From a virus (lineage: Duplodnaviria; Heunggongvirae; Uroviricota; Caudoviricetes), in IMG/VR virus record IMGVR_UViG_3300042863_001217: a DNA stretch of 64,000 nucleotides; one strand, given 5' to 3'. The notes beneath the pieces are model-generated. The model saw nothing but the letters and a program-made list of their open reading frames with translations. It was not told the origin of the DNA and did no database searches. Below, piece by piece: positions 11,345-27,990 of this stretch (position 1 is its first letter; each line of letters begins with the position of its first letter). The position numbers and the translations under genes were made by a program.

Positions 11345-11354
11345 ATCTGTTTTA

Positions 11355-11903: not shown

Positions 11904-11906
11904 GTT

Positions 11907-12224: not shown

Positions 12225-12817
12225 TATGTCATTTTTGGGTATTTTTTCTTAATTTCTTTATAGAATTTCTTGTAGTTTGTACCAGACATGTGATCTTCAG
12301 CTGCTCTAAGCAAATCTTCTAAAGAAGTCCACATTGTATTTGCTAATTGGTCTTGTGTTGTTGAAACTTGAGCCATTCTGTCTAGAATAGAATCAATTAT
12401 TTCAGGATTTAAAACAGTTTCAGTGCTAGGTTTTTCTGGACCCGCTGCTCTTTTAAGTGTCCACCAATCAACTTTCTTAGGAATAGTGTATGAAACAATT
12501 CCTTTTTGTTGGTCATTTGGACTAATTTGTCCAGGTTTTCCAATATTACTAGTGATTTTATCTAAATCTAAATTATCATCAAAACCTTTTAATGCTTTCT
12601 GAATATCTTTAGTTAGATCCACATCTGCCATATTTGGCTCGGTTCTAAGATATATCATTGAAGTCGATGACATGTTAAATTCAACGCCTTTTACTTTAGA
12701 AAGCTCTTTCTTAAATTGTTTTTGATACTCATCAACATCTAACCCATTATTATATCCTGGGAAAATATCCATCTTAGCTTCATTAATAAATTCTTCGTAT
12801 AGTTTTATGTACTTCAT
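12224..12817 (-). CDS. Leader-family protein (MKYIKLYEEFINEA...)
   Basis: Conserved N-terminus. 197 aa. Start overlaps the neighbouring stop (ATGA). Confidence 0.6.
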   Translation of the reverse strand: MKYIKLYEEFINEAKMDIFPGYNNGLDVDEYQKQFKKELSKVKGVEFNMSSTSMIYLRTEPNMADVDLTKDIQKALKGFDDNLDLDKITSNIGKPGQISPNDQQKGIVSYTIPKKVDWWTLKRAAGPEKPSTETVLNPEIIDSILDRMAQVSTTQDQLANTMWTSLEDLLRAAEDHMSGTNYKKFYKEIKKKYPKMT

Positions 12818-13101
12818 TATTTCTTTTTTATGTTTTTACCATTTGGTGTTAATTCTCCGTTATCATCCATCACCGTAAAATGTTCTCTCGAATTTCCTTG
12901 TGTTAATTCTATAGATAAACCTTTGTTCATACCACCTGATTCAGTTGAAGACCACAATCTAACTACAGTCCAAATACCTTTTTCACCTTCAACTTTAACC
13001 TTATCCCATGTCTTAACTTCAGTTTGATCAGTAAATGATTTTATTAATTTATCTTCATTAGACTCGTTAATAAAATCTTCGTATAGTTTTGCATATTTCA
13101 T
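12817..13101 (-). CDS. Leader-family protein (MKYAKLYEDFINES...)
   Basis: Conserved N-terminus. 94 aa. Confidence 0.55.
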   Translation of the reverse strand: MKYAKLYEDFINESNEDKLIKSFTDQTEVKTWDKVKVEGEKGIWTVVRLWSSTESGGMNKGLSIELTQGNSREHFTVMDDNGELTPNGKNIKKK

Positions 13102-13122
13102 TTGATTGTCTGTATTATTTTA

Positions 13123-14004
13123 TTATATATCATAATCTTCTATTGTTTCAGGACGAGTCCATCTTCTAAGATCACCTATCCAATCTTCTAATCTATAAGG
13201 GTGTTCCCAATATGGTGGTTTAGGTATGGTTAGTTTAGGTACTTTTAATCTATCACCATCTCTGGCTTCTAACCATTTGGTTTTCTTTTTAAGCTTTTTT
13301 ACTATTTGTAGTAGAGTTACTTTGTCTTCAGAGTGCAGCGCCCATTCACCATTAATAGGTAAAAGATCATGACGAGTACATGCTAATGCAATTGATTCTA
13401 CTCTTGTAAAGATTCTTATTTGAGTTCCAGGTTCAACGATAGTTATTGCTTGTTGATTCTTGATTTGATTTTCCCATATACCTAAGACAGTTGCGTATGC
13501 ACCTTCTGTAATTTGTCCAGGTCCATATGCATTAAAGAAATAAAATATGTGTGATTTAAGATTGCTCCATTTTTGGTGCTTTTTAATAAGATCTACATTT
13601 TGTTTTTTGTACCAACTATATGGTGAAAGATCTTGATCTTTTTGTCCAAAATGTGATGAAGATGCTGAATAAATTAGGATTGCATTTTGATTTATAGCTA
13701 ATCTTATAATTTGACTAGTTCCTTCAACACATGAAGATTGCACCTTTTCTATTTCTTGATATGATTGATGTATACGAGAATATTCTCCAAAGTGGTAGAT
13801 TTTATCAATCTCAAATCTTTCTAGTAATCGAAGAGCATCTTGAGTTCTACCTTCTATATACTGTACACCTTGAATATGATTAGATTTTAGGCCAGTAGAA
13901 TAATCATCTAGTGAAACTATTTTTGTATGCGGTTTCTCAGTAAGCAATGACTTAATAAGATGTGTTCCGATGAATCCTGCTCCTCCTGTTACTAATGTAT
14001 ACAT
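13123..14004 (-). CDS. NAD-dependent sugar epimerase/dehydratase
   Basis: N-terminal Rossmann motif VTGGAGFIGTHL. Confidence 0.7.
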   Translation of the reverse strand: MYTLVTGGAGFIGTHLIKSLLTEKPHTKIVSLDDYSTGLKSNHIQGVQYIEGRTQDALRLLERFEIDKIYHFGEYSRIHQSYQEIEKVQSSCVEGTSQIIRLAINQNAILIYSASSSHFGQKDQDLSPYSWYKKQNVDLIKKHQKWSNLKSHIFYFFNAYGPGQITEGAYATVLGIWENQIKNQQAITIVEPGTQIRIFTRVESIALACTRHDLLPINGEWALHSEDKVTLLQIVKKLKKKTKWLEARDGDRLKVPKLTIPKPPYWEHPYRLEDWIGDLRRWTRPETIEDYDI

Positions 14005-14011
14005 ATTTTAA

Positions 14012-14788
14012 TTATTTAGTTCCTAGCCAACTGTAATATTCTCTCCATCCATGCTTGACTAATGTAAATTGTTTAGGATCTCTTAAATATGTTAGATCAA
14101 AAATCTTTTCATCGCTTCCAATAAAATTCCTATCTAAGCAAAAACCTATTGTCTTATTTATCTCATTCATGTACCAATCTATTTTCCATGCTGGACAAAC
14201 GAATGCTCCACCTTGTATATGTCTTTGTTGTGAAAGAGTGTGCCATTCTGGATCTGGTATTGCAAAATCTAAATTGTGTGTAAAATGCATTATAGTATCC
14301 ATTGATAGTTTTTCTATATTAGGCCAAGTTTCTGGATAATCCATATCTTCTCTAATACCACCTGCATCTACCCATATTAAATGAGTTGCGTCTTTATGTA
14401 ATTTAAGTGCTTCATTTAAAAAGAAGATCTTATTGAACATTACTATATTATATAAAGGATAATTCATTTCAGGTACATGATCCCAATGTCTTTTCTTTAA
14501 AAATTCATCATCATGCATAACTTGATCTATTTTAGTGAACCAAGTCTTGTATGCTTCTAAATCTTCTATTGAGTTTATTACGTATGTGGTCATTTCTCCA
14601 GTTGGATCTACTTCAGATCTCATCTGTCTAATTCTTTCTTCGAACTTAGATTCTGTAAAAACCACCATATTAGCCCTAAGACTAAGTGCTCTTTGCATCC
14701 AATGTAAATATGTGTGATATGATTGTGCGAAATCTTTCCATTCAGATCTACCAATATCATAAAGTGCCGTAATAACTAATGGTTTCAT
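14012..14788 (-). CDS. Hypothetical protein in the glycan island, possible sugar transferase
   Basis: 258-aa ORF sitting between the epimerase and the putative glycosyltransferases. No firm motif. Confidence 0.3.
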   Translation of the reverse strand: MKPLVITALYDIGRSEWKDFAQSYHTYLHWMQRALSLRANMVVFTESKFEERIRQMRSEVDPTGEMTTYVINSIEDLEAYKTWFTKIDQVMHDDEFLKKRHWDHVPEMNYPLYNIVMFNKIFFLNEALKLHKDATHLIWVDAGGIREDMDYPETWPNIEKLSMDTIMHFTHNLDFAIPDPEWHTLSQQRHIQGGAFVCPAWKIDWYMNEINKTIGFCLDRNFIGSDEKIFDLTYLRDPKQFTLVKHGWREYYSWLGTK

Positions 14789-14801
14789 TGCTAAATTTTA
14801 T

Positions 14802-15536
14802 TTATATCCAAGACCACTCTACTCTAATGCCCTTATGTTTAATATGTATCTTATCTACATCAAAATGATTTGATCTACTTTGATTATTAAAAATAGTGTC
14901 AAGTGTAAATCCGTCTTTATTTAATATAGTTGGCACAAATCCTTCAGAATATCCATGTACACCATTTAGTAATAAATCTGTTATGTGACGTAGACTTTTA
15001 TTTGAGAATCTAACAATTGGAAAGAATGATCCAAATAATTCACCATTTTTATTGATTTGGTCACCATCACCTGGAAATCTATCAAACCATAATGTATTAC
15101 TGTATGTGTTAGCATCAATTTCGGGAATGTTAGGTTGACTAGTCACTCCTTTGTTCTTAAATATGTAATAAGAAATAAAATCAGTATTGTTATTTTCAAA
15201 TGCTTTAAAGAATTCTGACCAATTATCACATACTAAGTCATCATCCATAAACCAATACCAATCTTCATTGGGATTAAGCATATAATAATATGCCATTCTA
15301 AGATGTGCATAGAACCAAATAATATTTCTATTACCTTGTTGATTCCACCAATGTAATTTACTAACATCACTTCTAAAATTAAAAAGATCTCTTACTTTTT
15401 GTTCATCATATTCTATTCCAATAGGTGCTCTATCAGATAAAAATTCAAAGTCAAAATCTACAGTTTTCCAATACGATTCATATGATTTAAATGTATTAGC
15501 ACATGTACATACTATTGTTTTAGACATATTGTTCAA
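14802..15536 (-). CDS. Putative glycosyltransferase (DxD-like motif WFMDDDLV)
   Basis: Acidic DDD motif typical of GT-A fold enzymes. Context only. Confidence 0.3.
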   Translation of the reverse strand: MNNMSKTIVCTCANTFKSYESYWKTVDFDFEFLSDRAPIGIEYDEQKVRDLFNFRSDVSKLHWWNQQGNRNIIWFYAHLRMAYYYMLNPNEDWYWFMDDDLVCDNWSEFFKAFENNNTDFISYYIFKNKGVTSQPNIPEIDANTYSNTLWFDRFPGDGDQINKNGELFGSFFPIVRFSNKSLRHITDLLLNGVHGYSEGFVPTILNKDGFTLDTIFNNQSRSNHFDVDKIHIKHKGIRVEWSWI

Positions 15537-16341
15537 TTATTTTTTCATTCCATTCAGGAATTCTATTATATTGATGTGCAATTTTGTACACTATGTTGTT
15601 TGAGTCAATCAAAACATTTTCTTGTAATTTAGGTAAACCATATTTTTTATCAATAGCTTTTCCTAAACCCCATTCTATATGTTGAAACGTAGGACCTGAT
15701 AATGAACAGTGAACTACCCAACCTTCATTAGGTTTAAAGATTTTACAATTATCAATTAAGTTCTTATAAATTAAAATATTAAATGCAGCTTGATCCCTTA
15801 TATCATGGCCTTTTAATGAACCATCTACTAAGTGTTGTTGCATTCTTAATGTTTTTACTAATGAATCTTTTTTACCACACATTACTCCACTACAAACCAC
15901 CTCATATTGTCTAATAAAATCTACATATTCTGGAAATGCTTTATTCATAACATCCATATTCCAAGGCTCTTCATTATGTAATACACCTTCTGATCCAGCA
16001 AAGAAATCATATTTGTCTAGTTCTAACATTTCAAATGGATCTGCTTGAAAGCAAACGTCAAATACATCGGTTACCATAAATAAATCATAAGGACTATTCT
16101 CTATCCAATTTGCAGTATGAATTAATCTACTATCATTAATTGTTAATCCTGGATCTGATTCAATAGCATGGAATTTAATTCCATTTAGATTTAAAACATT
16201 TCTATCTTGAGCATTCATATCAGCTCCAATAAGTACTACTTCACCGTCTTTTACATGTTTTTTAAAACTATTAGCCCAAACCCTAATTTTATCGATATTA
16301 TTGGTTACATTGTTGCTAACTCCTGTTAATACTTTTTTCAT
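15520..16341 (-). CDS. Hypothetical protein, possible nucleotide-sugar transferase
   Basis: 273-aa ORF in the glycan island. Confidence 0.3.
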   Translation of the reverse strand: MKKVLTGVSNNVTNNIDKIRVWANSFKKHVKDGEVVLIGADMNAQDRNVLNLNGIKFHAIESDPGLTINDSRLIHTANWIENSPYDLFMVTDVFDVCFQADPFEMLELDKYDFFAGSEGVLHNEEPWNMDVMNKAFPEYVDFIRQYEVVCSGVMCGKKDSLVKTLRMQQHLVDGSLKGHDIRDQAAFNILIYKNLIDNCKIFKPNEGWVVHCSLSGPTFQHIEWGLGKAIDKKYGLPKLQENVLIDSNNIVYKIAHQYNRIPEWNEKIIEQYV

Positions 16342-16342
16342 T

Positions 16343-16975
16343 TTAACAATTATGTAATTTATGTGTCAACATTTCATTTACACCAAATATTGTAGGCCAA
16401 CTATACTCTAGTGCCCATATTTGTGGATCGTTTCCATGTGCTCCTCCAGAAAATGAAGAAGTTGATATATTTTTTGCTATACTTTCCATTAGTTTTACGT
16501 AAAAATCTAATGATCTTTTCTTAATTTGATCTTTCTTTACAATACATTGCATACCACCTATAAACATAAATGGCAATTTATATTCAATTTCCATTTTTTC
16601 ACAGTAATCAATAGCTTGCTTAATACAACCATCATTATCTCTGATATAAGTTGGTCCAATTGGATAAAATGGTTTTGTAAAATCACAATCATTGATAAAT
16701 TCTACACAAGTTTCACAATCATGTTCGAATGGATTTCCTTGTAAGAATATTGTGTAATCAGCTAAATTGTACCAATTTGTTACAATATGATGTAGGTGTG
16801 TATGCGCATCTTTACCATAATTTAACAGATTTCTTTCAAATAAATGATTATCTGCTGCATTTTTATTGTAAATAGTTACTTTATACTTAAGTTTTTTTGT
16901 CCAAGATACATCTTCATTGTATTTAGCAACAACTGCTTCTATTGTCATAAAACTCTTTCTATTTTTGTACACCAA
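16343..16975 (-). CDS. Hypothetical protein
   Basis: 210-aa ORF in the glycan island. Confidence 0.35.
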   Translation of the reverse strand: MVYKNRKSFMTIEAVVAKYNEDVSWTKKLKYKVTIYNKNAADNHLFERNLLNYGKDAHTHLHHIVTNWYNLADYTIFLQGNPFEHDCETCVEFINDCDFTKPFYPIGPTYIRDNDGCIKQAIDYCEKMEIEYKLPFMFIGGMQCIVKKDQIKKRSLDFYVKLMESIAKNISTSSFSGGAHGNDPQIWALEYSWPTIFGVNEMLTHKLHNC

Positions 16976-18192
16976 CCTTTTGATGCGCTATGTGGCCAAA
17001 CAATCCACTTATATGGTTTTGGTCCTTGCAAGTCTACATGAATGTGTATCCAATCACCAGGTTGTTGTAATTTCTGAGAAATCTCATGGTCGTTTAAATC
17101 CTTTCTATAAACTGAAGTACCATCTTCTGATTCCATAATCACTGCACAAAAAGTGTAGTCTGTTTCAGTAAGCACAGATCTATGCACATCTATAATGTGT
17201 TTGAATATATGATGAAAACTATTATCATAATCTTCTACATGAGGATTAGGTGCAAGTTTATTAGATGTGGTCCATTGTTGTACTGCACGATCTCTAAGTC
17301 TAATACCTGCGTATCTTTCCCAATCTGCAATAGTTCTAACTCTACCTAATCCATATTTACCATAAATATCTTCTTCTGAATCAAATGACTCTCCATCAAT
17401 TCCTAATAGTTTACGAGTTTTTTCATGAGTTCTTGTGTTTCTCTTACCCCATTCTGAATCATCATCCCATTGTTTAGTTCTACCTTTACGAGTATATTCA
17501 TGCCACGCAATAATTTTATGTGGATGGAATAAATCATATCCGTGTGTAAATGCTCTAACTGCAATAGTAATCTCTTCACCATGAAAATAGAATTCTGGAT
17601 CATGTTGTACCTCTATTGCAAATTGACCTACTGTAAATGCGAAGTGTGCTGAATAAAATCTTGAAGGAATTGGTTCTGTCATATTTTCCCATCCTGGAAT
17701 TGTAGCAGGTAAAAAGAATATTACACCTTCTGGAGTAAATCTATCAAAATTCATTAACCATGGTGCTTGAGTTCTGCCCTTTGGATCGATTTCTGGATTA
17801 TATGATGAAATATAGCTTGTAAGTAATGGTTTAGCATGACCTTTAGCTTGTAAACCCCTTAGCATATTAATCAATTCAGTGTCCCAGTTTCTAATAAACC
17901 TATGATGACTATCTAATTGAAATGTATAAGTTTCACCTTGATAAAGTTGTTGAATGCTATTTCGTGCCCAACATGCTCCAGTTGAATCTTTATAATTTAC
18001 ATCTAAAATTCTAAATCGCGAATCGTTTTTATATTGATCTAATGTATCCCATGTATCTTCTTCGGAATGTTGCCAACATATACCAAATCTAAGACGATCT
18101 GGAAATTCAGCGTTTAGTAAACAATCCTTAAGAGTATTCAATAACTCTGGATCTCTGTAACTTGCAATTTGAATAAATATGGTTTCTTCCAT
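16945..18192 (-). CDS. Putative GT-A glycosyltransferase (GlcNAc-transferase-like)
   Basis: The N-terminus IFIQIASYRDPEL resembles the Pfam 'GlcNAc' transferase family. This is from memory only. Confidence 0.35.
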   Translation of the reverse strand: MEETIFIQIASYRDPELLNTLKDCLLNAEFPDRLRFGICWQHSEEDTWDTLDQYKNDSRFRILDVNYKDSTGACWARNSIQQLYQGETYTFQLDSHHRFIRNWDTELINMLRGLQAKGHAKPLLTSYISSYNPEIDPKGRTQAPWLMNFDRFTPEGVIFFLPATIPGWENMTEPIPSRFYSAHFAFTVGQFAIEVQHDPEFYFHGEEITIAVRAFTHGYDLFHPHKIIAWHEYTRKGRTKQWDDDSEWGKRNTRTHEKTRKLLGIDGESFDSEEDIYGKYGLGRVRTIADWERYAGIRLRDRAVQQWTTSNKLAPNPHVEDYDNSFHHIFKHIIDVHRSVLTETDYTFCAVIMESEDGTSVYRKDLNDHEISQKLQQPGDWIHIHVDLQGPKPYKWIVWPHSASKGWCTKIERVL

Positions 18193-18244
18193 ATGATATA
18201 ATAGTTTTAATTGTTATATTATATATCGGGTTTTTGTTTATAGC

Positions 18245-18271
18245 AAAAAAAAAGGGTCGCTTTGCGTCCCT
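18245..18271 (-). terminator. Rho-independent terminator (minus strand)
   Basis: GGGACGC-aaa-GCGACCC followed by TTTTTTTTT on the minus strand, after the stop at 18296. Confidence 0.55.
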
Positions 18272-18295
18272 TTAATATTTTATGTTAAACTATAA

Positions 18296-21016
18296 TTATG
18301 GTGCTATAGGATCTTCTTTTCTATTGTGTGTAATTATACCATTTGCTACGTATACATCATTAGACTCTACGTCTAATTTATAAACTTTAAATGATCCACT
18401 ATTTTTTACAATAGAAGTAATTAGATGTTCATATCCATCTTGATTAATAAATGAATCGCCAACTAAAATATCATTAGCTTTCATTACAGACCATACTGAA
18501 TTTCTTTTTATAATATGCACGTGATCTTCACTTGAAGTTAATAAACCATCATTAAAACTTAACACGCTATTTACAATGTGTTCAGTATTTTGAGTAACTG
18601 TAGCCGATGTATTAGATAAAGTTGGATTTGTTTGAGACCATTGTATTAAATTCTGATAATTATCTCCATCTGGCATATTACCTATTATCATTGAAGATAA
18701 TTCCATACCAATTGTTAACGATTCTATTGTAGCGTGAGTACCGTTTGATAATTTAACTAAAGTTCCTTCTAGTAAACATCCTCCTGGAGTTCCGGCACAT
18801 AATTCAAATATAGTATACTCAGGTGGTGTTGTATCAGGCTGAACTAATCTCCAACACGTTCCAGATGCATCGTCTACATATACTAATTGATCAAGATTAT
18901 ATAAATCACTATATGGTCCCACATACGAATATACACCTCCATCATTTCTTTCTGCTAACCATGATCTATATACAGTTGGAGTAGGTTTATCTGGTGTTGC
19001 TGTAGGATTTGGAATATATTCGCTGTAACTACATCCAAATTCACTTGTACATCCAATAGTTTGGTCAATTACGAAAATATCATCTGAAATTATAAATACC
19101 ATTTCTGATGAGTCCCATGTACTTGGCACTGAACTACTACATACTGAATATACTGCTCCAGATCTTCCATTATAATAATAAGGTGAAGCTAGCATTTCAT
19201 TAAATGTTCTTTGTATATAACTTCCAAAATTATAACCTAATCCATATCTAAATATGTCCACTGTATCAGCTACCCATACATGATAACATGTACCCGAAGG
19301 TGCATCAGTTGGTCTCGGAGTTGATGTCGGAGGAACTAAGGTCGGTTCTGGTATATATGTAGTTGGTGTTGGTGGAATCGGTGTTGCTGTTGGATAACCT
19401 GCACCTGCACCCGAAGATGAATAACATTGAGATCCAATTTGTGTTATAATAATATTTTGATAATATGCAATTGCTTTTACACATAAAACAACAGGTTGAG
19501 AATATGGTGTTAAATACACTGTATCACTTCTACCATCACACATTGTATATTGTATGTAACCACTATTCCAACTATCTGTTAATTGAAAATTATAAGTATA
19601 ACAAGGTACAGCTGTTGCTGTTGGTGGAATTGGCGTTGCCGTTGGTAGGTTTAACGAACTGTCAAGTATTCTTACATTAACTGTATCTAATACAATACTA
19701 CTAGCATTAGTAAGTTTTACAATCAACCATTCATCACCTTCTGTTAAATTATCAGATTTTGTGGTTAATTCAAATACACCTTGACCATTTACACCCGAAG
19801 TAGTAGTAATTACTACATAACCATTGTTGATAGCTTCAACCAAATCACTTGCATTTGCATTATATGGTCCTAATTCCCACCAAAGTGTTGTTGGTGATGC
19901 ATTTAAATATTGTGTGTCAACTACAAATGTAATTTTTACATTTTCTTCATTGACTTGTGTTTTATTAGCAGAAATACTATAAGTAGGTGGAAACCAATAC
20001 TCATCAGTTACATAACCAAGTACACTATCGTAGTATACAGCATATGCTGATCCTGCTTCATAATACCATCCACTGGGCGCTGTTTCACACGTAGCTATAT
20101 AACTATTGTCACATAAAGTTTGTATGCCAGAGATTAAGCCTGTGTTGATCCAGTTACCGTTACTATCAAATGTAACTTGATCGTATCTTCCAACTGGAGT
20201 AGTTGCAGTAGATAAGCCATAATAATAATTACCAGGATATGTTGATGCTAATGAACTTTGTACCATTAATTGTGCATCGTATGAATTACAAATACCTAAT
20301 AAATTATATTCAAAATAAGTTTGATCTGTTGAATTATTAACATCGTCATTTCCACCTGGAACATCATCAGTTATTAAAATAATAAGTTTAATTGCATCAG
20401 ATCTAAATGATCCTGCAATATTATTAGACAATATTTCATTGATCCCTAAACCACCGGGTTCTGGCGCACCTTGACCATATCCTAAAGGAAAACTAGGTGT
20501 AGCTAATAAATTAAGTTTTGTTTGAAAATCAGTAATTGAACCAACATTACCTAATGGTTGCATACATGTAATAAATTGAGTTCTATTATTAAATGTGTTT
20601 ATCACAGCTTTTTGTGATGCTGGTAAATTTAAGTATATAGATGTCTGTCCATAGTTGTTTGACGGTGGAGATGTTAGATTACCGGCATATTCATCAAATA
20701 TGCAAAGTCCTACTCTATAATTACCTAATGATTCACTATCGATAGTACTTAAAATATTAGCAATACCAGCTTTAACACCATTGATTGCACCGTCCATAGA
20801 TCCAGTATAGTCAACTAAAAATACTATATCTAACCCTGTAGTACATTGAGTTGGAATAGTTAATTTATTTTGGTTTATAGCTAGACCATTTGTAGAATAA
20901 GTCTTAAAAACATTTGAATTGTTAATATTATTAGGACTTAATGGATCATAAGCTAAACTTACAAAACTAGTCGGTGGTACACAAGATTGCCCATATGAGC
21001 TTACAGATAATGCCAT
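18296..21016 (-). CDS. vWA-domain protein with C-terminal Hint (Hedgehog/intein-like) domain and PT-rich linkers: 'Vint'-like structural/adhesin protein
   Basis: vWA MIDAS motifs DIVFLVDYTGSM and LIILITDDVPGG. C-terminal ~150-aa module starts GG|CLLEGTLV and ends ...ANGIITHN, then 8 more residues. Confidence 0.6.
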   Translation of the reverse strand: MALSVSSYGQSCVPPTSFVSLAYDPLSPNNINNSNVFKTYSTNGLAINQNKLTIPTQCTTGLDIVFLVDYTGSMDGAINGVKAGIANILSTIDSESLGNYRVGLCIFDEYAGNLTSPPSNNYGQTSIYLNLPASQKAVINTFNNRTQFITCMQPLGNVGSITDFQTKLNLLATPSFPLGYGQGAPEPGGLGINEILSNNIAGSFRSDAIKLIILITDDVPGGNDDVNNSTDQTYFEYNLLGICNSYDAQLMVQSSLASTYPGNYYYGLSTATTPVGRYDQVTFDSNGNWINTGLISGIQTLCDNSYIATCETAPSGWYYEAGSAYAVYYDSVLGYVTDEYWFPPTYSISANKTQVNEENVKITFVVDTQYLNASPTTLWWELGPYNANASDLVEAINNGYVVITTTSGVNGQGVFELTTKSDNLTEGDEWLIVKLTNASSIVLDTVNVRILDSSLNLPTATPIPPTATAVPCYTYNFQLTDSWNSGYIQYTMCDGRSDTVYLTPYSQPVVLCVKAIAYYQNIIITQIGSQCYSSSGAGAGYPTATPIPPTPTTYIPEPTLVPPTSTPRPTDAPSGTCYHVWVADTVDIFRYGLGYNFGSYIQRTFNEMLASPYYYNGRSGAVYSVCSSSVPSTWDSSEMVFIISDDIFVIDQTIGCTSEFGCSYSEYIPNPTATPDKPTPTVYRSWLAERNDGGVYSYVGPYSDLYNLDQLVYVDDASGTCWRLVQPDTTPPEYTIFELCAGTPGGCLLEGTLVKLSNGTHATIESLTIGMELSSMIIGNMPDGDNYQNLIQWSQTNPTLSNTSATVTQNTEHIVNSVLSFNDGLLTSSEDHVHIIKRNSVWSVMKANDILVGDSFINQDGYEHLITSIVKNSGSFKVYKLDVESNDVYVANGIITHNRKEDPIAP

Positions 21017-21029
21017 TATTTATTTTATT

Positions 21030-24000
21030 TTATTTCGGTGTACAATTTGAGTTAGTAAATATTGCAGTTACTGTAAATCCAACTCCATCGTAGTCTGATT
21101 GATTACCAGTAACATATACATATTTATTATCCCATAATTGAGCAGCGACATTATTGTATATGCTTTCTGCAAATTTAGTATTACTTGCATGATCCCAAAC
21201 TAATAATACTGATGCGGTTCCAGTTGCATCTACACCCCATAGAGTGTATCTAACTTCTTGTGTATTATCACTTACACCGTATGAAGACTCAATTCCAGTT
21301 AAAATCATACCTTCTAAAGCAAATGTATATGGTATTAATACAAATGATTTTTGAAGTGATTGATTTGTAATTTTTTCATCTCTTGGAGTTGCACAAATTG
21401 ATACATGTTCATAACATGATCCTATGCCCGCTTCTCCAGGTTGTCCAGGTTGTCCATTGATACCTGATGTACCATTTGTTCCTGAAGAACCATTTGTACC
21501 ATTTGTTCCTGAAGAACCATTAGTTCCAGATGTACCATTTGTACCATGTGTTCCTGAAGTTCCATTAGTACCACTTGTACCATCTCTACCAGAAGAACCG
21601 CTTGTACCATCTTTACCTGAAGTTCCATTAGTACCACTCGTACCATTTAAACCAGAAGTACCATTAGTTCCTGATGTTCCATTAGTTCCATTAATTCCTG
21701 AAGAACCATTAGTTCCAGATGTACCATTAGTACCACTTGTACCATTAGTTCCAGATGTACCATTAATACCGCTTGAACCGCTTGTACCATCTCTACCTGA
21801 AGAACCATTTGTACCAGAAGTACCATTAGTTCCTGAAGAACCATTAGTTCCTGATGTTCCATTAGTTCCAGATGTACCATTAGTACCATGTGTTCCTGAA
21901 GTTCCATTAGTTCCAGAAGTTCCATTAGTACCGCTTGTACCATTAGAACCATTTATTCCTGAAGATCCATTAGTTCCTGAAGTTCCACGCTCACCGTTTG
22001 TACCACTAGTTCCATTTGTACCTGAAGAACCATTAGTTCCTGAAGTACCATTTGCGCCAGATGTACCATTAGTTCCTGAAGAACCATTAGTACCACTTGT
22101 ACCGTTAGTTCCATGTGTTCCTGAAGAACCATTAGTTCCTGATGTTCCATTAGTTCCTGATGTTCCATTAGTACCACTTGTTCCATTAGTTCCATTAGTT
22201 CCTGAAGTTCCACGCTCTCCGTTTGTACCACTAGTACCATTTAAACCAGATGTTCCATTAGTTCCTGAAGAACCATTAGTACCACTAGTACCATTAATTC
22301 CAGAAGAACCACTAGTACCATTAATTCCAGAAGAACCATTTGCACCTGAAGTTCCATTTATACCATCTCTACCTGAAGAACCATCTGTACCTGAAGTTCC
22401 ACGCTCTCCGTTTATACCATCAGTTCCACTTGTTCCATTTATACCACTAGTACCATTAGTTCCAGAAGTTCCGTTAGTTCCTGAAGTTCCGTTAGTTCCA
22501 TGTGTACCTGAAGTACCATTAGTTCCAGAAGTTCCGTTAGTTCCACTTGTTCCATTTGCACCTGAAGTTCCGTTAGTACCATCTCTACCTGAAGAACCAT
22601 TTGTACCACTAGTACCATTAGTTCCTGAAGTTCCGTTAGTTCCACTTGTTCCATTTGCACCTGAAGTTCCGTTAGTTCCATGTGTACCTGAAGTTCCGTT
22701 AGTTCCAGAAGAACCATTAGTTCCTGAAGATCCATTTGTTCCAGAAGAACCATTAGTACCTGATGTACCACGTTCTCCATTTATACCACTTGAACCATCA
22801 GTTCCAGAAGTTCCATCTAATCCATTACGACCATCAATACCACTAGTTCCATTAGTTCCAGAAGTTCCATTTATACCGCTTGTGCCATTTGAACCATTAG
22901 TACCACTAGTTCCATTTGTTCCAGAAGAACCATTAGTTCCATTTGTTCCAGAAGAACCATTAGTACCAGATGTACCATTAGTTCCACTAGTTCCATTTGT
23001 TCCAGAAGAACCATTAGTTCCTGAAGTTCCATTTGAACCATTAGTACCACTCGTACCGTTTGTTCCAGAAGAACCATTAGTTCCTGATGTACCATTAGCA
23101 CCGCTTGTGCCATTTGAACCATTTAAACCCGATGTACCATTAGTTCCAGAAGAACCATTAGTTCCAGAAGTTCCAGTATCACCTTTAGCGCCTGAAGTTC
23201 CATTAGTACCAGATGTACCATTAGTTCCAGAAGAACCATTAGTTCCTGAAGAACCATCAGCACCATCAAATCCAGATGTACCATTATTACCATTAGTTCC
23301 TGAAGTTCCGTTAGTTCCTGAAGTTCCGTGTGATCCATCCATTCCACTAGTACCATTAATACCAGAAGATCCATCATTACCTCTTGAACCTGAAGTTCCA
23401 TCAGTTCCATTTGAACCTGAAGTTCCATTAGTTCCTGAAGTTCCATTAGTTCCTGAAGAACCATTAGTTCCTGAAGTTCCATCAGATCCATTTGTACCAT
23501 TTGTTCCATTTGTTCCAGAAGATCCATCAGAACCATTAGTTCCATTAGTTCCATTTGTTCCAGAAGAACCATTAGTTCCATTTGTTCCAGAAGAACCGCT
23601 TGTTCCAGGATTTCCAGTTACACCGCTTGTTCCATTTGTTCCATTTGTTCCAGAAGAACCATTTGTTCCAGAAGAACCATTAGTTCCTGAAGAACCATTT
23701 GTTCCTGAAGAACCATTAGATCCATTTGTTCCAGATGTACCATTAGAACCCGCAGGTCCTTCAGTTGCACCTAAAGATGAAACTATATGTGAATAATTTG
23801 AAACGCCTTCTGTATAAAATTTAATAGTTCTATTTTGATTATCATCGTTAATAGCATAAATTTGAACTAATACTTTATCAGTAGGACTTATATAATGTTG
23901 TTCTAAAAATAAGTCTTGATATACATCCACTGGAATTGCAGTAGAAGTGTCCCATCCTATTAATGTAGGTGTAGTTGTTCCCCACACAGCAATTGGTATT

Positions 24001-24914
24001 CCACCTGCATCTGTACGAGTAACCTTAACATATACTTGAATAGCATGTGAATCTACTTCTTTAGTGAAGTGCATTAAAAATGATTGAATACCAGCAGATA
24101 CTACTGCAACACCTAATCCAACTGGAGTTATAAATTGAGTAACTAATACATCTGATTGCAACGGAGTTAAATCAGTAGTTACTATTTGTTGTACACTAGA
24201 TACTGGGATTGGTGAAATTTCATTAAGATCATTTGCACCGCCACCATTATTAACTACAGTAACTGATTCATTCATATAGAATATTTGACCAGTGCTATAA
24301 CCTGCTTCTCCTTGTAAACCATTAACTCCACTTGAACCTGAAGTTCCATCAATTCCTGATGTACCATTAGTACCACTTGTTCCATCAATTCCAGAAGTAC
24401 CATTAGTACCATCTAAACCGTTTAAACTAACTTCTACCCATGGATCATTACCATTAGTTGAAGATGGTGTATATAATTGTGGTAAAAATGTTGGAGGTCC
24501 ACCTATAACATTTGTGTATATTTGTGTACTATTAGGTTTTAAAAGACCTGCGCGAACCCATTGTGGTAACGCTTGCCATTCAGTATCACCTAAAACACCA
24601 TTATTGCCCCAATATCCTTTAGGTATTAAGACATAAAATTTATTTTCTTCAATGACATAAACTAGCATACCAACTGATCGAATACCCGTTGTATATCCAC
24701 CATCGTTTGAAACTGTAAAACCAATATGTGTAACTGGTGCAGGTGCTTCACCCCAAATAGGTAAGGCATTTCTTTCTTCAATTGTAAATACCTTTTGATA
24801 CCCACCCTTTACATGTTGTGCATGTACAATTCCTTCATAAGGACTTAATGATGAACTTGGCGAAATAAAATTACCAAAGGCGTATTGTGTTGAAACTGGT
24901 CTAGTAAATCCCAT
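21030..24914 (-). CDS. Collagen-like repeat protein (virion fibre candidate), 1294 aa
   Basis: Several hundred residues of uninterrupted G-X-Y triplets (GTNGTSGTNGSSG...), flanked by non-collagenous N- and C-terminal domains. Confidence 0.7.
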   Translation of the reverse strand: MGFTRPVSTQYAFGNFISPSSSLSPYEGIVHAQHVKGGYQKVFTIEERNALPIWGEAPAPVTHIGFTVSNDGGYTTGIRSVGMLVYVIEENKFYVLIPKGYWGNNGVLGDTEWQALPQWVRAGLLKPNSTQIYTNVIGGPPTFLPQLYTPSSTNGNDPWVEVSLNGLDGTNGTSGIDGTSGTNGTSGIDGTSGSSGVNGLQGEAGYSTGQIFYMNESVTVVNNGGGANDLNEISPIPVSSVQQIVTTDLTPLQSDVLVTQFITPVGLGVAVVSAGIQSFLMHFTKEVDSHAIQVYVKVTRTDAGGIPIAVWGTTTPTLIGWDTSTAIPVDVYQDLFLEQHYISPTDKVLVQIYAINDDNQNRTIKFYTEGVSNYSHIVSSLGATEGPAGSNGTSGTNGSNGSSGTNGSSGTNGSSGTNGSSGTNGTNGTSGVTGNPGTSGSSGTNGTNGSSGTNGTNGTNGSDGSSGTNGTNGTNGSDGTSGTNGSSGTNGTSGTNGTSGSNGTDGTSGSRGNDGSSGINGTSGMDGSHGTSGTNGTSGTNGNNGTSGFDGADGSSGTNGSSGTNGTSGTNGTSGAKGDTGTSGTNGSSGTNGTSGLNGSNGTSGANGTSGTNGSSGTNGTSGTNGSNGTSGTNGSSGTNGTSGTNGTSGTNGSSGTNGTNGSSGTNGTSGTNGSNGTSGINGTSGTNGTSGIDGRNGLDGTSGTDGSSGINGERGTSGTNGSSGTNGSSGTNGSSGTNGTSGTHGTNGTSGANGTSGTNGTSGTNGTSGTNGSSGRDGTNGTSGANGTSGTNGTSGTNGTSGTHGTNGTSGTNGTSGTNGTSGINGTSGTDGINGERGTSGTDGSSGRDGINGTSGANGSSGINGTSGSSGINGTSGTNGSSGTNGTSGLNGTSGTNGERGTSGTNGTNGTSGTNGTSGTNGTSGTNGSSGTHGTNGTSGTNGSSGTNGTSGANGTSGTNGSSGTNGTSGTNGERGTSGTNGSSGINGSNGTSGTNGTSGTNGTSGTHGTNGTSGTNGTSGTNGSSGTNGTSGTNGSSGRDGTSGSSGINGTSGTNGTSGTNGTSGTNGSSGINGTNGTSGTNGTSGLNGTSGTNGTSGKDGTSGSSGRDGTSGTNGTSGTHGTNGTSGTNGSSGTNGTNGSSGTNGTSGINGQPGQPGEAGIGSCYEHVSICATPRDEKITNQSLQKSFVLIPYTFALEGMILTGIESSYGVSDNTQEVRYTLWGVDATGTASVLLVWDHASNTKFAESIYNNVAAQLWDNKYVYVTGNQSDYDGVGFTVTAIFTNSNCTPK
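21434..23760 (-). repeat. Tandem 9-bp-unit DNA repeats encoding collagen G-X-Y triplets
   Basis: Low-complexity periodic DNA. Produces artefactual ORFs on the opposite strand. Confidence 0.7.
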
Positions 24915-24934
24915 TTTATTTTATATTATTTTTA

Positions 24935-26239
24935 TTATACTACGTTTAGTGTTAATGCACCAGATAGAGGTTGGTCAAATACTTCATATAAAGTGTATGC
25001 ATTTCCTAAATGTGTGAAATCTAATTTAGATACAAATGTAAATGGAATTCCATTCGCAGCATCTGCGAATTTAGCTGTCGTTACATAGTCAGTTGTACTA
25101 ACTGATTTTGGAATTGCAATGTAATATCTTTGTGAAGAAGCCACATTAGCCGCAAAATACAATGTACCGTTAGGTATTTCAGTATTATTTATAGCACTAA
25201 ATGTATCAAAATAAATTTGTTCTACATTATTAGCAGTTCCTTCATTCGCTAACATATCGACAAATACTAAATCAAAATTAGTTGTAGTTGTATTATCGTT
25301 TAAGTAATAATCAGAAGAAGGTGTAGTTAATGAATTAACTCCTGGATAACCTCCATTTCCGTTCCAGTGGAACCAGAATGTAGATGATCCTTCAGGAACT
25401 GGCGTTGCAGTCGGTTCTGGAATTGAAGTTGCAGTCGGTGCAGGAACTGGCGTTGCAGTCGGTTCTGGAATTGAAGTTGCAGTCGGTGCAGGAACTGGCG
25501 TTGCAGTCGGTGCAGGAATAGCTGTCGCTGTAGGTGCAGGAACTGGCGTTGCAGTCGGATCTGGAATTGCTGTCGCTGTAGGCGCAGGAACTTCAGTCGC
25601 TGTAGGATCTGGAACTGGCGTTGCAGTTGGGATCACTTCAGTCGCTGTAGGATCTGGAACTGGCGTTGCAGTCGGGATCACTTCAGTTGCTGTAGGTACA
25701 GGAACTTCAGTCGCTGTAGGATCTGGAACTGGCGTTGCAGTCGGGATCACTTCAGTTGCTGTAGGATCTGGAACTGGCGTTGCAGTTGGATCTGGTATAG
25801 CTGTTGCTGTAGGTGCAGGAACTGGCGTTGCAGTCGGGATCACTTCAGTTGCTGTAGGATCTGGAACTGGTGTTGCAGTCGGAATAATCGCAGTCGCAGT
25901 TGGCAAAATTGTTGCCGTAGGAACAGGAACTGGTGTTGCAGTAGGTGGTATAGGTGTAATATCAGTAACAAATAAAGTATTTGAAACGGTTTCACATAAA
26001 TTAGAGTCAATTATTTTAACTTTATATTGACCCGGTGCTAAACCACTATTACCCGTATTATCGGTTGCATTACCAAATGTAAACGTATTGGATACAATGT
26101 TATTGACAGGATTTTGAAATGTCGGATATGCATTGTTAGGTATCGGTTGATTTGTACCTGCGTTCAGTAAAGTATATTGGTAAGGTCCGACTCCTCCAAC
26201 TACTTGTACTGTAACTGTTCCATTATTAATGTTTGCCAT
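24935..26239 (-). CDS. Pro/Thr-repeat protein (PTATPVPDPTATEVI...) with globular N- and C-terminal domains
   Basis: About 170 aa of PT-rich tandem repeats. Confidence 0.55.
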   Translation of the reverse strand: MANINNGTVTVQVVGGVGPYQYTLLNAGTNQPIPNNAYPTFQNPVNNIVSNTFTFGNATDNTGNSGLAPGQYKVKIIDSNLCETVSNTLFVTDITPIPPTATPVPVPTATILPTATAIIPTATPVPDPTATEVIPTATPVPAPTATAIPDPTATPVPDPTATEVIPTATPVPDPTATEVPVPTATEVIPTATPVPDPTATEVIPTATPVPDPTATEVPAPTATAIPDPTATPVPAPTATAIPAPTATPVPAPTATSIPEPTATPVPAPTATSIPEPTATPVPEGSSTFWFHWNGNGGYPGVNSLTTPSSDYYLNDNTTTTNFDLVFVDMLANEGTANNVEQIYFDTFSAINNTEIPNGTLYFAANVASSQRYYIAIPKSVSTTDYVTTAKFADAANGIPFTFVSKLDFTHLGNAYTLYEVFDQPLSGALTLNVV

Positions 26240-26264
26240 TTGTTTATATTTTTATTTTAATTTT

Positions 26265-27944
26265 TTATCTAAAAGGTTCGCCTTCATATCGACATTCAAA
26301 GTTTGATGCACATTCTCCGCCCATCGGTAATGCATATACGCCTTCTGGATATGCCATTATAAAGTTATTTATGCTATCCCAATAATTAGGTTGCAATGTG
26401 CTACATATATTATATACAATACCTCGTGTTCCATTTATTTCAGCTGGTGCAGACATAAGTTCACTGAATAGTGTATTTTGTATTCCATTAAGATTATAAT
26501 TTAAACCGAAACCTTCTGTTTGTTCAGTTTCTGGTACGAATATGAAATGACAAAAACCTGTTTTACCTAAATCTTCAGGTGTTGGAGTAGGTCTTATAGC
26601 TTCTCCTCCACTACCACTATCTGGTGTAGATGTTGGTTCTATTGGTATCTCAGTTGCAATTGGTGCAGGAATTAGCGTTGCAGTTGGTGCAGGAACTGGT
26701 GTTGCAGTTGGAATAACTGGTGTTGCAGTCGGTGCAGGAATAGCTGTTGCAGTCGGTGCAGGAACTGGCGTTGCAGTCGGTGCAGGAACTGGTGTTGCAG
26801 TTGGTCTTCCCTCAATTGGATCTGGATCTGGTGTTCTAACACCTTCGCATCCAAATATATTATGTGTTAATATTCTCTCAAGACTTAAATCAGTACTCGG
26901 TGTTACACTTCTAAAAATGTAAACAGCACCTGTATTTAATTCACCTTCTATTGTAATTGTATCGTCAAGAGTTGGTGGTATAATAGTAAATCCAGCTTCA
27001 GTTAATGTTTCAGCTGTACATATATAATTAGGTTGTGCTTTTCCTTCAGGATTAAAGCAAACTATAAATTCATAATTTAATCGACCATCTATAATTGGTG
27101 TTGCGGTAGGTCTTATTGCTTCTGTTGCAGTAGGATCTGGAACTGGCGTTGCAGTTGGGATCACTTCAGTTGCAGTTGGATCTGGTAAAACTTCAACATC
27201 TGTTGGTGTTGGTGTAGGTCTAATAGATTCATCTAATGTTGCAGTCGGTGTAGGTCTAATAGATTCATCTAATGTTGCAGTAGGATCTGGTAAACCACTT
27301 CCTCCACTTCCTCCTCCACTACCACTATCTGGTGTAGATGTTGGTGTTATACCAGCACCTCCATCACCTGAACCTCCACCTGAACTAATTGCAGTTGCAG
27401 TTGGTGGAATTGGTGTTGCAGTTGGTGGAATTGGTGTTGCAGTCGGTGTTATACCTGAACCTCCACCACTTCCACTTCCACTGCTATATACAGTAGTTGG
27501 TATTGGTGTTGGATCTGGAATTTGCGTTGCATTTGTAGTTGATGCTAACGTAATAATAAATCCTCCACAATTATCGATTGCATCTGTTTTAGATGCAAAA
27601 TTAACATAAAAATCATTACAATCATATTGAGGCGTAATCCAAATATATTGACCTGAAGTATAACCAGCGGCTACATATCTGTCGTAATCAGTATCTAATG
27701 CACTAATTTTCCAAAATATTAATGATTTTTCTAATTCATTATCAGAAAGAGTTAAATTAGTATTCTGACCAAATATTCTCCAACCTGCCATAGTTTGTTG
27801 AGAATACAACAAATTATAGTCCATTTCAGAATGGGTTAGTGGTCTTCCTAAAGTATGCGGATGTAATGGAAACCATTTTCCATTAACCATGTTTCTATGA
27901 AGTCCGTGTATAAAACTATAATTTTCGATGTTACCGATATCCAT
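26265..27944 (-). CDS. Pro/Thr- and Gly/Ser-repeat protein, paralogous linker style
   Basis: PTATPIPPTATPIP, SGSGGGSG and PTATPVPAPTATAIP repeats. Confidence 0.55.
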   Translation of the reverse strand: MDIGNIENYSFIHGLHRNMVNGKWFPLHPHTLGRPLTHSEMDYNLLYSQQTMAGWRIFGQNTNLTLSDNELEKSLIFWKISALDTDYDRYVAAGYTSGQYIWITPQYDCNDFYVNFASKTDAIDNCGGFIITLASTTNATQIPDPTPIPTTVYSSGSGSGGGSGITPTATPIPPTATPIPPTATAISSGGGSGDGGAGITPTSTPDSGSGGGSGGSGLPDPTATLDESIRPTPTATLDESIRPTPTPTDVEVLPDPTATEVIPTATPVPDPTATEAIRPTATPIIDGRLNYEFIVCFNPEGKAQPNYICTAETLTEAGFTIIPPTLDDTITIEGELNTGAVYIFRSVTPSTDLSLERILTHNIFGCEGVRTPDPDPIEGRPTATPVPAPTATPVPAPTATAIPAPTATPVIPTATPVPAPTATLIPAPIATEIPIEPTSTPDSGSGGEAIRPTPTPEDLGKTGFCHFIFVPETEQTEGFGLNYNLNGIQNTLFSELMSAPAEINGTRGIVYNICSTLQPNYWDSINNFIMAYPEGVYALPMGGECASNFECRYEGEPFR

Positions 27945-27990
27945 TTGATACTTTTCTTTTTTTTATATATTCAATTTTTATTACTTAGTA

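What the first reader, a model, noticed from the sequence alone, without database searches (positions are those of the whole stretch)
18296..21016. Vint-like architecture (vWA plus PT linker plus C-terminal Hint domain) in a phage structural module
The N-terminal vWA domain has a MIDAS site (DYTGSM...TDD). The C-terminal ~150-aa module starts GG|CLLEGTLV and ends ...NGIITHN, followed by only 8 residues (RKEDPIAP). These are the nucleophile Cys1 and terminal His-Asn signatures of Hint (Hedgehog/intein) autoprocessing domains. The +1 residue is Arg, not C/S/T. So splicing is unlikely. Hedgehog-like N-terminal cleavage with possible ligation to a non-protein acceptor is more plausible. The vWA+Hint ('Vint') architecture has been described in eukaryotes, so finding it in a phage fibre locus is notable. 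Self-cleavage could release or covalently attach an adhesin domain.
Basis: partly seen in the sequence, partly recalled or inferred. Interest (0 to 1): 0.65.

Follow-up and report, generated by a model that had tools for sequence, protein, structure and literature searches.

The report
Self-cleaving intein-like cap on phage fibre protein
A 906-residue putative adhesin of an uncultured marine jumbo phage ends in a 152-residue intein-like (BIL-type Hint) self-processing domain followed by only 8 residues, and this end-cap design recurs on many phage fibre-like proteins but is unrelated to the eukaryotic Vint family beyond sharing the fold.

Summary
ORF 18296-21016 (-) encodes 906 aa with an N-terminal VWA-like domain. 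Its MIDAS residues (D69, T71, S73, T150, D217) are invariant in relatives. Three unassigned modules joined by Pro/Thr linkers follow, then a Hint domain (C747-N898) and the tail RKEDPIAP.

Every sequence feature that defines type-A BILs and could be tested is met: Cys1, block-B His, terminal His-Asn, no +1 nucleophile, no endonuclease, and a hypervariable host protein. "Vint-like" therefore describes only the domain order.

The same module caps diverse proteins: 940 cluster representatives at E<=1e-10 and 36 viral contigs. Tails have a median of 6 aa, and Lys sits at +1/+2 in 90%. In several phages the gene lies beside collagen-like tail-fibre genes. Close relatives lack the module at the same tail position, and the module's tree disagrees with the host protein's tree.

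Most likely function: self-removal through a Gly746-Cys747 thioester and Asn898 cyclisation. Activity is inferred, not shown.

The parts
18296..21016 (-). Whole ORF, 906 aa plus stop: modular VWA-containing putative fibre/adhesin protein with a C-terminal Hint cap
20855..21016 (-). Conserved N-terminal segment, aa 1-54, without an obvious hydrophobic signal peptide on reading the sequence (no predictor was run); present in 62 of the 63 close relatives
20117..20854 (-). VWA-like domain, aa 55-300. MIDAS variant D69-x-T71-x-S73 (20795-20812), T150 (within 20558-20575), D217 (within 20360-20377)
19652..20116 (-). Conserved 'mid' domain, aa 301-455, fold unassigned; present in all 63 close relatives
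19604..19645 (-). Pro/Thr-rich linker 1 (PTATPIPPTATAVP, aa 458-471)
19394..19603 (-). Variable Cys-containing module D3, aa 472-541; present or absent among relatives
19325..19393 (-). Pro/Thr-rich linker 2, aa 542-564
19013..19324 (-). Variable module D4, aa 565-668
18968..19012 (-). Pro/Thr-rich linker 3, aa 669-683
18797..18967 (-). Variable distal module D5, aa 684-740, ending in Cys740
18779..18796 (-). Gly-rich N-junction AGTPGG (aa 741-746). Predicted scissile bond is Gly746|Cys747
18323..18778 (-). Hint domain of BIL type-A character, C747-N898 (152 aa). Block A is C747; block B is S829-x-x-H832 (18515-18535); block F is LDVESNDVYVA (18344-18376); block G is NGIITHN (18323-18343)
18299..18322 (-). 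8-residue tail RKEDPIAP. R899 is +1 (not a nucleophile). K900 is +2 (invariant in the family; Lys at +1/+2 in 90% of distant relatives)
18241..19354 (-). Hypervariable 3' cassette (distal modules, Hint and 56 nt past the stop) with no detectable DNA similarity to the otherwise 91-96% identical Hint-less locus L001
21030..24914 (-). Context: upstream 1294-aa collagen-like protein matching PHROG tail-fibre families. The matches are largely repeat-driven
16945..18192 (-). Context: downstream GlcNAc-transferase (PF11397), first gene of a glycosylation cluster; syntenic in all related contigs

Best explanation
The last 160 residues are a self-removing end-cap. It is a mini Hint domain of the bacterial-intein-like (BIL) type-A kind, fused through a Gly-rich junction to the distal end of a modular, hypervariable VWA-containing fibre/adhesin protein of an uncultured marine jumbo phage.

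Inferred mechanism, step by step:
1. After folding, Cys747 attacks the Gly746 carbonyl (N-S acyl shift, assisted by block-B His832) and forms a thioester.
2. Asn898, assisted by His897, cyclises and cuts the bond to Arg899.
3. The thioester is then resolved in one of two ways. Water may release a mature protein of about 746 aa that ends ...GTPGG. Alternatively, as proposed for type-A BILs, an amine of the freed tail peptide may re-join the tail and give ...GTPGG-RKEDPIAP, which resembles the C-termini of relatives that lack the module.

Shown here: the fold, the catalytic motif set and its invariance, the absence of a +1 nucleophile, the terminal position, the presence/absence polymorphism, the modular exchange, and the phage and fibre-locus context. 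Inferred: that cleavage occurs, which product dominates, and that the protein is a virion fibre or adhesin.

For: Sequence: the family profile hits BIL2 at 3e-7. Sub-threshold Intein_splicing matches occur in 26 of 26 family sequences and PT-HINT in 22 of 26. TIGR01443 passes its cutoff.

Catalytic set: C7, S88, H92, H94, E144, D147, T156, H157, N158 and K160 of alignment A1 are invariant. Across the distant representatives with a near-full-length match, Cys1 is present in 129 of 132. Of 133 scorable for +1, only 3 have C/S/T there.

Type-A BIL definition (terminal His-Asn, no +1 nucleophile, splicing possible but cleavage dominant, proposed ligation by the free amine of the C-fragment): PMC4031507.

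Insertion-like relationship: Hint-less relatives end C-Gly-rich-K/R-acidic-P, like the joined flanks of Hint+ proteins. Hint-less forms lie in at least 4 clades.

Variable host protein: the 3' cassette shares no DNA similarity with L001 while the flanks are 91-96% identical.

Phage and fibre context: jumbo-phage gene content on a 261-kb contig. The collagen-like neighbour matches tail-fibre PHROGs. Analogous Hint-capped ORFs lie next to tail-fibre genes in L014, L023 and Phage NCTB.
Against: There are no biochemical data, so autoprocessing is inferred from residue conservation only. Pfam Hint-family matches of the single sequence are below the gathering cutoffs. With a tail of only 1-8 residues, the selective reason for keeping Asn cyclisation is unclear. 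At least one described type-A BIL (M. magnetotacticum) did not splice until +1 was mutated to Cys. No virion structural hallmark genes were recognised in the 64-kb window, so the fibre/adhesin role rests on neighbours and analogy. The collagen-like neighbour's PHROG matches are largely repeat-driven. The scan of cellular genomes used only two peptide patterns, so the absence of hits is weak evidence that the module is phage-specific.
Confidence: 0.65

Rival explanations
1. Thioester-driven covalent ligation. The Hint does not merely cut. It acts as a single-use, ATP-independent ligase that transfers the Gly746 carboxyl to a lysine epsilon-amine. The acceptor could be its own conserved Lys900, giving an isopeptide-branched tail, or a lysine of another virion protein such as the collagen-like fibre, which would anchor the adhesin covalently.
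For: The closest solved homologue, Tetrahymena BIL2, forms exactly such a Lys-eNH2 isopeptide and conjugates its N-extein, which ends in Gly-Gly, to several substrates (PMC8616854). Lys at +2 is invariant in the family, and Lys at +1 or +2 occurs in 120 of 134 distant relatives, even when it is the last residue of the protein. Gly is the commonest -1 residue (45 of 132, with GG in 28).
Against: In BIL2 the acceptor lysine lies in a folded ubiquitin-like C-extein, not at +2. The conserved Lys could instead be structural or could tune Asn cyclisation. No acceptor has been identified. The -1 residue is variable.
Confidence: 0.15
2. Selfish intein-like passenger. The module is a mobile or recombining BIL element parked in a dispensable C-terminal tail. 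Its catalytic residues are conserved only so that it removes itself, and it brings the phage no benefit.
For: Presence/absence polymorphism occurs at the same tail position among close relatives. The Hint tree and host tree disagree strongly: P0013/P0014 have 96% core identity but 61% in the Hint, and P0014/P0036 have 60% core but 97% Hint. In P0047/P0039 the flanks are nearly identical while the Hint is about 70% identical. Tandem poly-Hint proteins exist.
Against: There is no homing endonuclease. Most breakpoints lie in Pro/Thr linkers and move whole distal modules together with the Hint, which ordinary fibre-gene mosaicism explains. At the very C-terminus, simple decay or loss would be harmless, yet 940 cluster representatives keep an intact motif set, which suggests a benefit.
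Confidence: 0.12
3. One reading: a Vint- or Hedgehog-like protein in which the Hint performs N-terminal cleavage only and transfers the N-terminal fragment to a non-protein acceptor such as a lipid or sugar.
Confidence: 0.05
4. Non-catalytic use: the Hint fold serves as a stable distal knob, either for receptor binding or as an oligomerisation or chaperone domain, and is retained in the mature protein.
For: It sits at the distal tip of a hypervariable protein, where receptor-binding domains usually lie. Phage fibres often carry C-terminal chaperone domains (own knowledge: Peptidase_S74 intramolecular chaperones).
Against: The invariant positions are exactly the catalytic ones (Cys1, block-B His, block-F Asp, His-Asn), which binding domains have no reason to conserve. 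The Hint is better conserved than the neighbouring distal modules in most pairs.
Confidence: 0.03

Closest known systems
Type-A bacterial intein-like (BIL) domains (Amitai 2003; Dassa 2004; C. thermocellum BIL structure 2LWY)
   Different: Here the domain sits at the extreme C-terminus with a vestigial 8-aa C-flank instead of a downstream domain. Lys at +2 is conserved. The carrier is a phage protein and the family is mainly viral or metagenomic. Sequence identity to the solved BILs is only about 18%.
BIL2 of the Tetrahymena thermophila BUBL1 polyubiquitin-like locus (PDB 6TMM/6Y75)
   Different: BIL2 lies between two ubiquitin-like domains in a eukaryotic polyprotein, and its acceptor Lys is in a folded C-extein. 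Here there are no ubiquitin-like domains, and the tail is 8 aa. Zn-dependent activation was not assessed.
Eukaryotic VWA-Vwaint-Vint proteins (Burglin 2008; Vint structure 8R2C)
   Same: An N-terminal VWA domain and a Hint-superfamily domain in one polypeptide.
Pre-toxin Hint (PT-HINT, PF07591) of bacterial polymorphic toxins
   Same: Sub-threshold PT-HINT matches in 22 of 26 family members. The Hint lies near the C-terminus of a large modular surface protein that undergoes cassette exchange.
   Different: PT-HINT is followed by a toxin domain that it is thought to release. Here nothing follows except 8 residues.
Self-cleaving C-terminal intramolecular chaperone domains of phage tail spikes and fibres (Peptidase_S74; own knowledge)
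   Same: A functional analogy: a C-terminal domain on a phage fibre protein that removes itself autocatalytically after doing its job.
   Different: The fold and chemistry are unrelated (a Ser-Lys dyad protease against a Hint thioester with Asn cyclisation). No chaperone role has been shown here.
Hint-capped proteins of Phage NCTB (LT598654: BN7874_132, _136, _135) and of uncultured Caudovirales 'Hint domain containing' proteins in BFVD
   Same: Closest predicted structures (TM 0.83-0.90). The design is the same: GGGG|C...HN followed by a 3-7 aa tail, inside an annotated tail-fibre cluster with collagen-like fibre genes.
   Different: Only about 20-29% identical. The N-terminal parts differ and lack VWA. 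In the open-access and preprint papers I could search, they are annotated only generically ('intein domain protein') and are not characterised.

Membership tests
Hint (Hedgehog/intein) fold superfamily | Hint beta-fold with pseudo-twofold symmetry | tested here: met
BIL type A | N-terminal Cys/Ser nucleophile (block A) and block-B (T/S)xxH | tested here: met
   C747 and S829-E-D-H832. Both are invariant or nearly so in 26 aligned sequences. Cys1 is present in 129 of 132 distant relatives.
BIL type A | C-terminal His-Asn like inteins (block G) | tested here: met
   T896-H897-N898 is invariant. TIGR01443 intein_Cterm scores 17.5 bits against a 15.6 cutoff. Definition taken from PMC4031507.
BIL type A | No Cys/Ser/Thr nucleophile at +1 | tested here: met
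   R899. The family uses R, Y, A, S, G, L, V, N or K. Only 3 of 133 distant relatives have C/S/T.
BIL type A | Sits in variable regions of non-conserved, often surface or secreted proteins; no homing endonuclease | tested here: met
   The domain is 152 aa with no endonuclease insert. It lies in a hypervariable 3' cassette. Presence/absence and module shuffling are seen.
BIL type A | Autocatalytic N- and C-terminal cleavage, with or without ligation | not testable with these tools
   Needs expression, mutants and mass spectrometry.
BIL type A | Groups with curated BIL-A sequences rather than inteins in a phylogeny | tested here: inconclusive
Vint (VWA-Vwaint-Vint) | Vint-type Hint domain (PF14623): motifs A and B only, lacking intein C-terminal motifs | tested here: not met
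Vint (VWA-Vwaint-Vint) | Vwaint domain (PF14624) between VWA and Hint | tested here: not met
   No hit. The interval holds a family-specific 155-aa domain, three variable modules and three clear Pro/Thr-rich linkers.
Vint (VWA-Vwaint-Vint) | N-terminal VWA domain | tested here: inconclusive
   Pfam VWA E 2e-3, below the cutoff. PF00092 is precomputed in about 25 relatives. The family profile hits vWFA proteins at 8e-4 to 0.09. MIDAS D-x-T-x-S...T...D is invariant. Probably a VWA domain, but no structure model was made.
Hedgehog/Hog | Hog-type Hint followed by a sterol/adduct-recognition region; no terminal His-Asn requirement | tested here: not met
   Only 8 residues follow the Hint. PF01079 is matched by 2 of 26 sequences at E 0.12. 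1AT0 ranks below the BILs and several inteins.
Canonical class-1 intein | +1 Cys/Ser/Thr and insertion in a conserved site of a conserved host protein | tested here: not met
   +1 is Arg. The host site is a variable Gly-rich tail of a hypervariable protein. PF14890 scores 21.5-24.4 bits, below the 35.8 cutoff.
PT-HINT (polymorphic toxin pre-toxin Hint) | Hint immediately upstream of a C-terminal toxin domain | tested here: not met
   The tail is 8 aa. The median tail is 6 aa in 134 relatives. PF07591 matches are sub-threshold.

The most novel reading that the evidence does not exclude
The invariant Lys just after the terminal Asn, together with kinship to Tetrahymena BIL2, could mean that this large phage-borne clade of C-terminal Hint caps acts as single-use, ATP-independent isopeptide ligases. 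The Gly-Cys thioester would be captured by a lysine amine, either the module's own +2 Lys or a lysine on a partner such as the adjacent collagen-like fibre. This would covalently staple adhesin modules onto the virion. It would be a new route to covalent virion assembly, and a compact natural ligation tag.
Probability: 0.12. Interest if true: 0.8.

Novelty: new variant of a known kind. Interest (0 to 1): 0.45.

Why it matters
If the module is active, it would be a second, chemically different class of self-removing C-terminal domain on phage fibre or adhesin proteins, alongside the well-known S74 intramolecular chaperones. It would also extend BIL-type Hint chemistry from bacterial surface proteins and ciliate polyubiquitins into viruses.

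The clade is large: 940 cluster representatives at E<=1e-10. It is sharply defined by its terminal position, tiny tail and Lys at +1/+2. In the open-access and preprint papers I could search it appears uncharacterised, so one simple cleavage assay would annotate many hypothetical proteins.

Its position in the most variable part of an otherwise nearly identical phage genome links it to host-range cassettes. Compact Hint domains that need no +1 nucleophile are also of practical interest for protein ligation and tag removal.

Tried and rejected
- Single-sequence AlphaFold of the last 174 aa failed (pLDDT 31). The 26-sequence alignment was needed.
- The full-length protein gave no PDB hit by phmmer, no PHROG, no tblastn hit in 50,697 phage records and no IMG/VR locus with exact-word patterns. 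Megablast of 12 kb of the window also found nothing, and neither did tblastn with a neighbouring 1192-aa ORF.
- The middle modules (aa 301-455 and 472-740) have no convincing PDB relatives.
- The Hint pattern scan of 185,579 species-representative genomes found nothing. It used only two peptide patterns, so I treat this as weak evidence.
- Literature probes for Hint or BIL domains in phage fibre or virion proteins returned only canonical terminase and RNR inteins.
- Rejected readings: Vint membership, the Hedgehog mechanism, a canonical intein and PT-HINT (see the membership tests).
- The idea that only the Hint moves like a homing intein is mostly rejected, because breakpoints usually lie in Pro/Thr linkers and carry the neighbouring modules too. 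One pair (P0047/P0039) still hints at a Hint-only exchange.
Full report
OBSERVATION. The ORF at 18296-21016 on the minus strand encodes 906 aa. The Hint module is C747-N898 (152 aa; window 18323-18778). The architecture is richer than "VWA + PT linker + Hint". It comprises a conserved N-terminal segment (aa 1-54), a VWA-like domain (55-300), a conserved unassigned domain (301-455), three variable modules separated by three clear Pro/Thr-rich linkers, a Gly-rich junction, the Hint, and an 8-aa tail.

WHICH KIND OF HINT? Type-A BILs are defined by intein-like C-terminal His-Asn and the lack of a +1 nucleophile. They can splice, but cleavage dominates. The proposed ligation is by the free amine of the C-fragment attacking the N-terminal thioester (PMC4031507). 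All the sequence-level features are met here (see the membership table). Vint proteins are defined as VWA-Vwaint-Vint, where the Vint domain conserves only motifs A and B and cannot be classed as intein, Hog or BIL (PMC2362128). Neither Vint nor Vwaint is matched by the protein or by any of the 26 relatives. Motifs F and G are present, and Vint is the most distant intact Hint-class structure. The Hedgehog Pfam model is matched by 2 of 26 sequences at E 0.12, and there is no room for a sterol-recognition region. PT-HINT requires a downstream toxin, which is absent. "Vint-like" is therefore a coincidence of domain order and does not indicate kinship.

VWA. Support is weak but consistent. Pfam VWA is below its cutoff in the query but is precomputed for about 25 relatives. 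The family profile (A2) reaches the vWFA protein PTMP1 (8e-4), a VWA protein (0.03) and integrin beta-I domains (0.08-0.09). The MIDAS positions D69, T71, S73, T150 and D217 are invariant.

THE MODULE LOOKS INSERTED INTO A PRE-EXISTING TAIL. Fifteen close relatives lack the Hint. They end "Cys, Gly-rich stretch, K/R, a few acidic residues, Pro", for example CGGGKDGLEEEPR and CPPSGGGGGKPGDGFEEEIAP. Joining the flanks of Hint+ proteins gives the same kind of tail, for example CEGGKDE|KKIEERPE and CPGDTGGGDK|VKPMP; the query gives CAGTPGG|RKEDPIAP. P0012 shares 76% identity with the query over the 62% of the query that aligns, and ends ...GGGGGNLETPIPEQFQ where the query has GG[Hint]RKEDPIAP. On a tree of the conserved N-terminal 450 aa, Hint-less proteins fall in at least four separate clades.

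The Hint tree and host tree also disagree strongly. P0013 and P0014 have 96% core identity but 61% in the Hint. P0014 and P0036 have 60% core identity but 97% in the Hint. P0018 and P0037 have 53% core identity but 93% in the Hint. Breakpoints mostly lie in Pro/Thr linkers and move the distal modules together with the Hint. In P0047/P0039, however, both flanks are nearly identical while the Hint is about 70% identical. At the DNA level, the window and the Hint-less locus L001 are 91-96% identical in flanking genes and about 79% in the fibre genes. They are not alignable over the last ~1.06 kb of this gene (18241-19354). That is a hypervariable cassette of the kind usual for host-range determinants.

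A LARGE CLADE OF C-TERMINAL HINT CAPS. An exhaustive profile search of 1.84 billion cluster representatives found 4243 proteins at E<=1e-3, 940 at <=1e-10 and 86 at <=1e-30. In the top 150 the module is almost always at the very C-terminus of proteins of 150-3400 aa. Of 134 scorable representatives, the median tail is 6 aa, and 117 have a tail of 12 aa or less. Lys is at +2 in 90 and at +1 in 30 more (90% in total), often as the last or second-last residue. Only 3 of 133 have C/S/T at +1. Among the 132 near-full-length domain matches, Cys1 is present in 129, and Gly is the commonest -1 residue (45). The N-terminal partners include fn3, collagen, CBM5/12, BACON and RHS modules. Some proteins are tandem arrays of the module.

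The module occurs in 36 IMG/VR viral contigs. A pattern-limited scan of 185,579 cellular genomes found none. In BFVD the closest structures (TM 0.83-0.90) are uncultured Caudovirales "Hint domain containing" and fibronectin-III proteins, plus three proteins of the 258-kb Phage NCTB. The NCTB genes lie in an annotated tail-fibre cluster beside collagen-like fibre genes and show the same GGGG|C...HN|7-aa design. In L014 and L023 the Hint-capped ORF directly follows a PHROG tail-fibre gene, which is collagen-like in L014, and glycosyltransferases are nearby.

GENOMIC CONTEXT. The protein is found on 15 contigs of marine metagenomes, the longest 260,917 bp. The gene content is that of a jumbo phage of a peptidoglycan-bearing bacterium. 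It has dense same-strand ORFs, endolysin-type amidase and glucosaminidase genes, NUDIX, thioredoxin, a PD-(D/E)XK exonuclease, polynucleotide kinases, a DnaB-like ATPase and a tRNA. The downstream GlcNAc-transferase has phage homologues only in Xanthomonas and Stenotrophomonas jumbo phages. The upstream 1294-aa collagen-like protein matches tail-fibre PHROGs at E 5e-108, largely through its repeats. No capsid, portal or tail-tube gene was recognised in the window, so "structural module" is plausible but not proven. The window holds only one Hint and one VWA.

MECHANISM. Most likely (0.65): BIL-A-type self-removal. A thioester forms at Gly746-Cys747. Asn898 cyclises and releases the tail. Hydrolysis, or re-ligation of the tail, then yields a mature adhesin of about 746-754 aa and a free 17-kDa Hint. 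The fold, motif invariance, position and context are shown. The chemistry is inferred.

Rivals:
- Thioester capture by a lysine, as in BIL2, which forms a Lys isopeptide (PMC8616854). The conserved +1/+2 Lys prompts this reading (0.15).
- A purely selfish passenger (0.12).
- The Vint/Hedgehog reading (0.05).
- A retained non-catalytic knob (0.03).

NOVELTY AND VERDICT. The domain kind is known, and such proteins already sit in databases under generic labels such as "Hint domain containing" or "intein domain protein". What I could not find described in the open-access and preprint papers I could search is the phage-borne end-cap variant: an extreme C-terminal position, a vestigial tail, a conserved Lys, and association with collagen-like fibre and glycosylation loci. 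I rate it a new variant of a known kind, with moderate interest (0.45). It would rise considerably if lysine-directed ligation were shown.

Noticed in passing
window 21030-24914 (-) and 21424-23796 (+): A 1294-aa collagen-like protein with hundreds of G-T-S / G-T-N Gly-X-Y triplets matches tail-fibre PHROGs (E 5e-108). Its repeats generate long spurious ORFs, one antisense (+ strand, 790 aa) and several in alternative frames of the same strand.
   Followed up: partly
window 9000-18200, 41358-42104, 46487-50570: A large glycosylation toolkit surrounds the PT-rich and collagen-like genes. It includes a eukaryote-type GlcNAc-transferase (PF11397, phage homologues only in Xanthomonas/Stenotrophomonas jumbo phages), DUF3431, HtrL_YibB, two NAD-dependent epimerase/dehydratase-family genes, a 1068-aa GT9+GT1 fusion and a KDO8P-synthase-like gene. 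This suggests the Pro/Thr linkers and collagen repeats are O-glycosylated.
   Followed up: partly
window 18241-25560 compared with locus L001: There is a hypervariable island inside otherwise 91-96% identical phage genomes. The fibre genes are about 79% identical, and the 3' 1.06 kb of the Hint gene cannot be aligned.
   Followed up: yes
window 24935-26239 (-): The SprB/Cornifin-like Pro/Thr-rich gene varies in length (364, 434, 450, 555 and 571 aa) among near-identical contigs, as expected for repeat expansion and contraction.
   Followed up: no
L034 6615-8879, L038 220-2961, L044 6171-8909; proteins P0147, P0150, P0235, P0253: Some proteins consist of tandem copies of the same Hint module joined by very short linkers (for example THN|IKPPP|C...). 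P0150 has 13 matched stretches. These poly-Hint arrays of unknown purpose are reminiscent of BUBL polyproteins.
   Followed up: no
L046 (Phage NCTB LT598654) 1224-8483: This tail-fibre cluster has three Hint genes, including a stand-alone 153-aa Hint (BN7874_135) with no apparent N-extein, interleaved with two short collagen-like tail-fibre genes.
   Followed up: partly
L014 13587-14945: Near another Hint-capped ORF lies a fusion of a glucosyltransferase with a 2OG-Fe(II) oxygenase. This resembles the collagen lysyl-hydroxylase/glycosyltransferase enzymes of giant viruses (own knowledge) and sits next to a collagen-like tail fibre.
   Followed up: no
window 36153-36740 and 51228-52193; 58891-58965: Two separate peptidoglycan-hydrolase genes are present (a glucosaminidase, and PG_binding_1+Amidase_2). 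There is also a tRNA-Ala(TGC).
   Followed up: no
window 1-10000 and 22000-28000: G+C is 36-39% in these stretches and 29-33% elsewhere. The second stretch coincides with the collagen-like and Pro/Thr-rich genes, so amino-acid composition probably explains it.
   Followed up: no
L001 20140-20349: A 69-aa gene has a weak Acb2/Tad1-hairpin (anti-CBASS/Thoeris sponge) Pfam hit, just beyond the region syntenic with window ~9000. The window counterpart was not examined.
   Followed up: no
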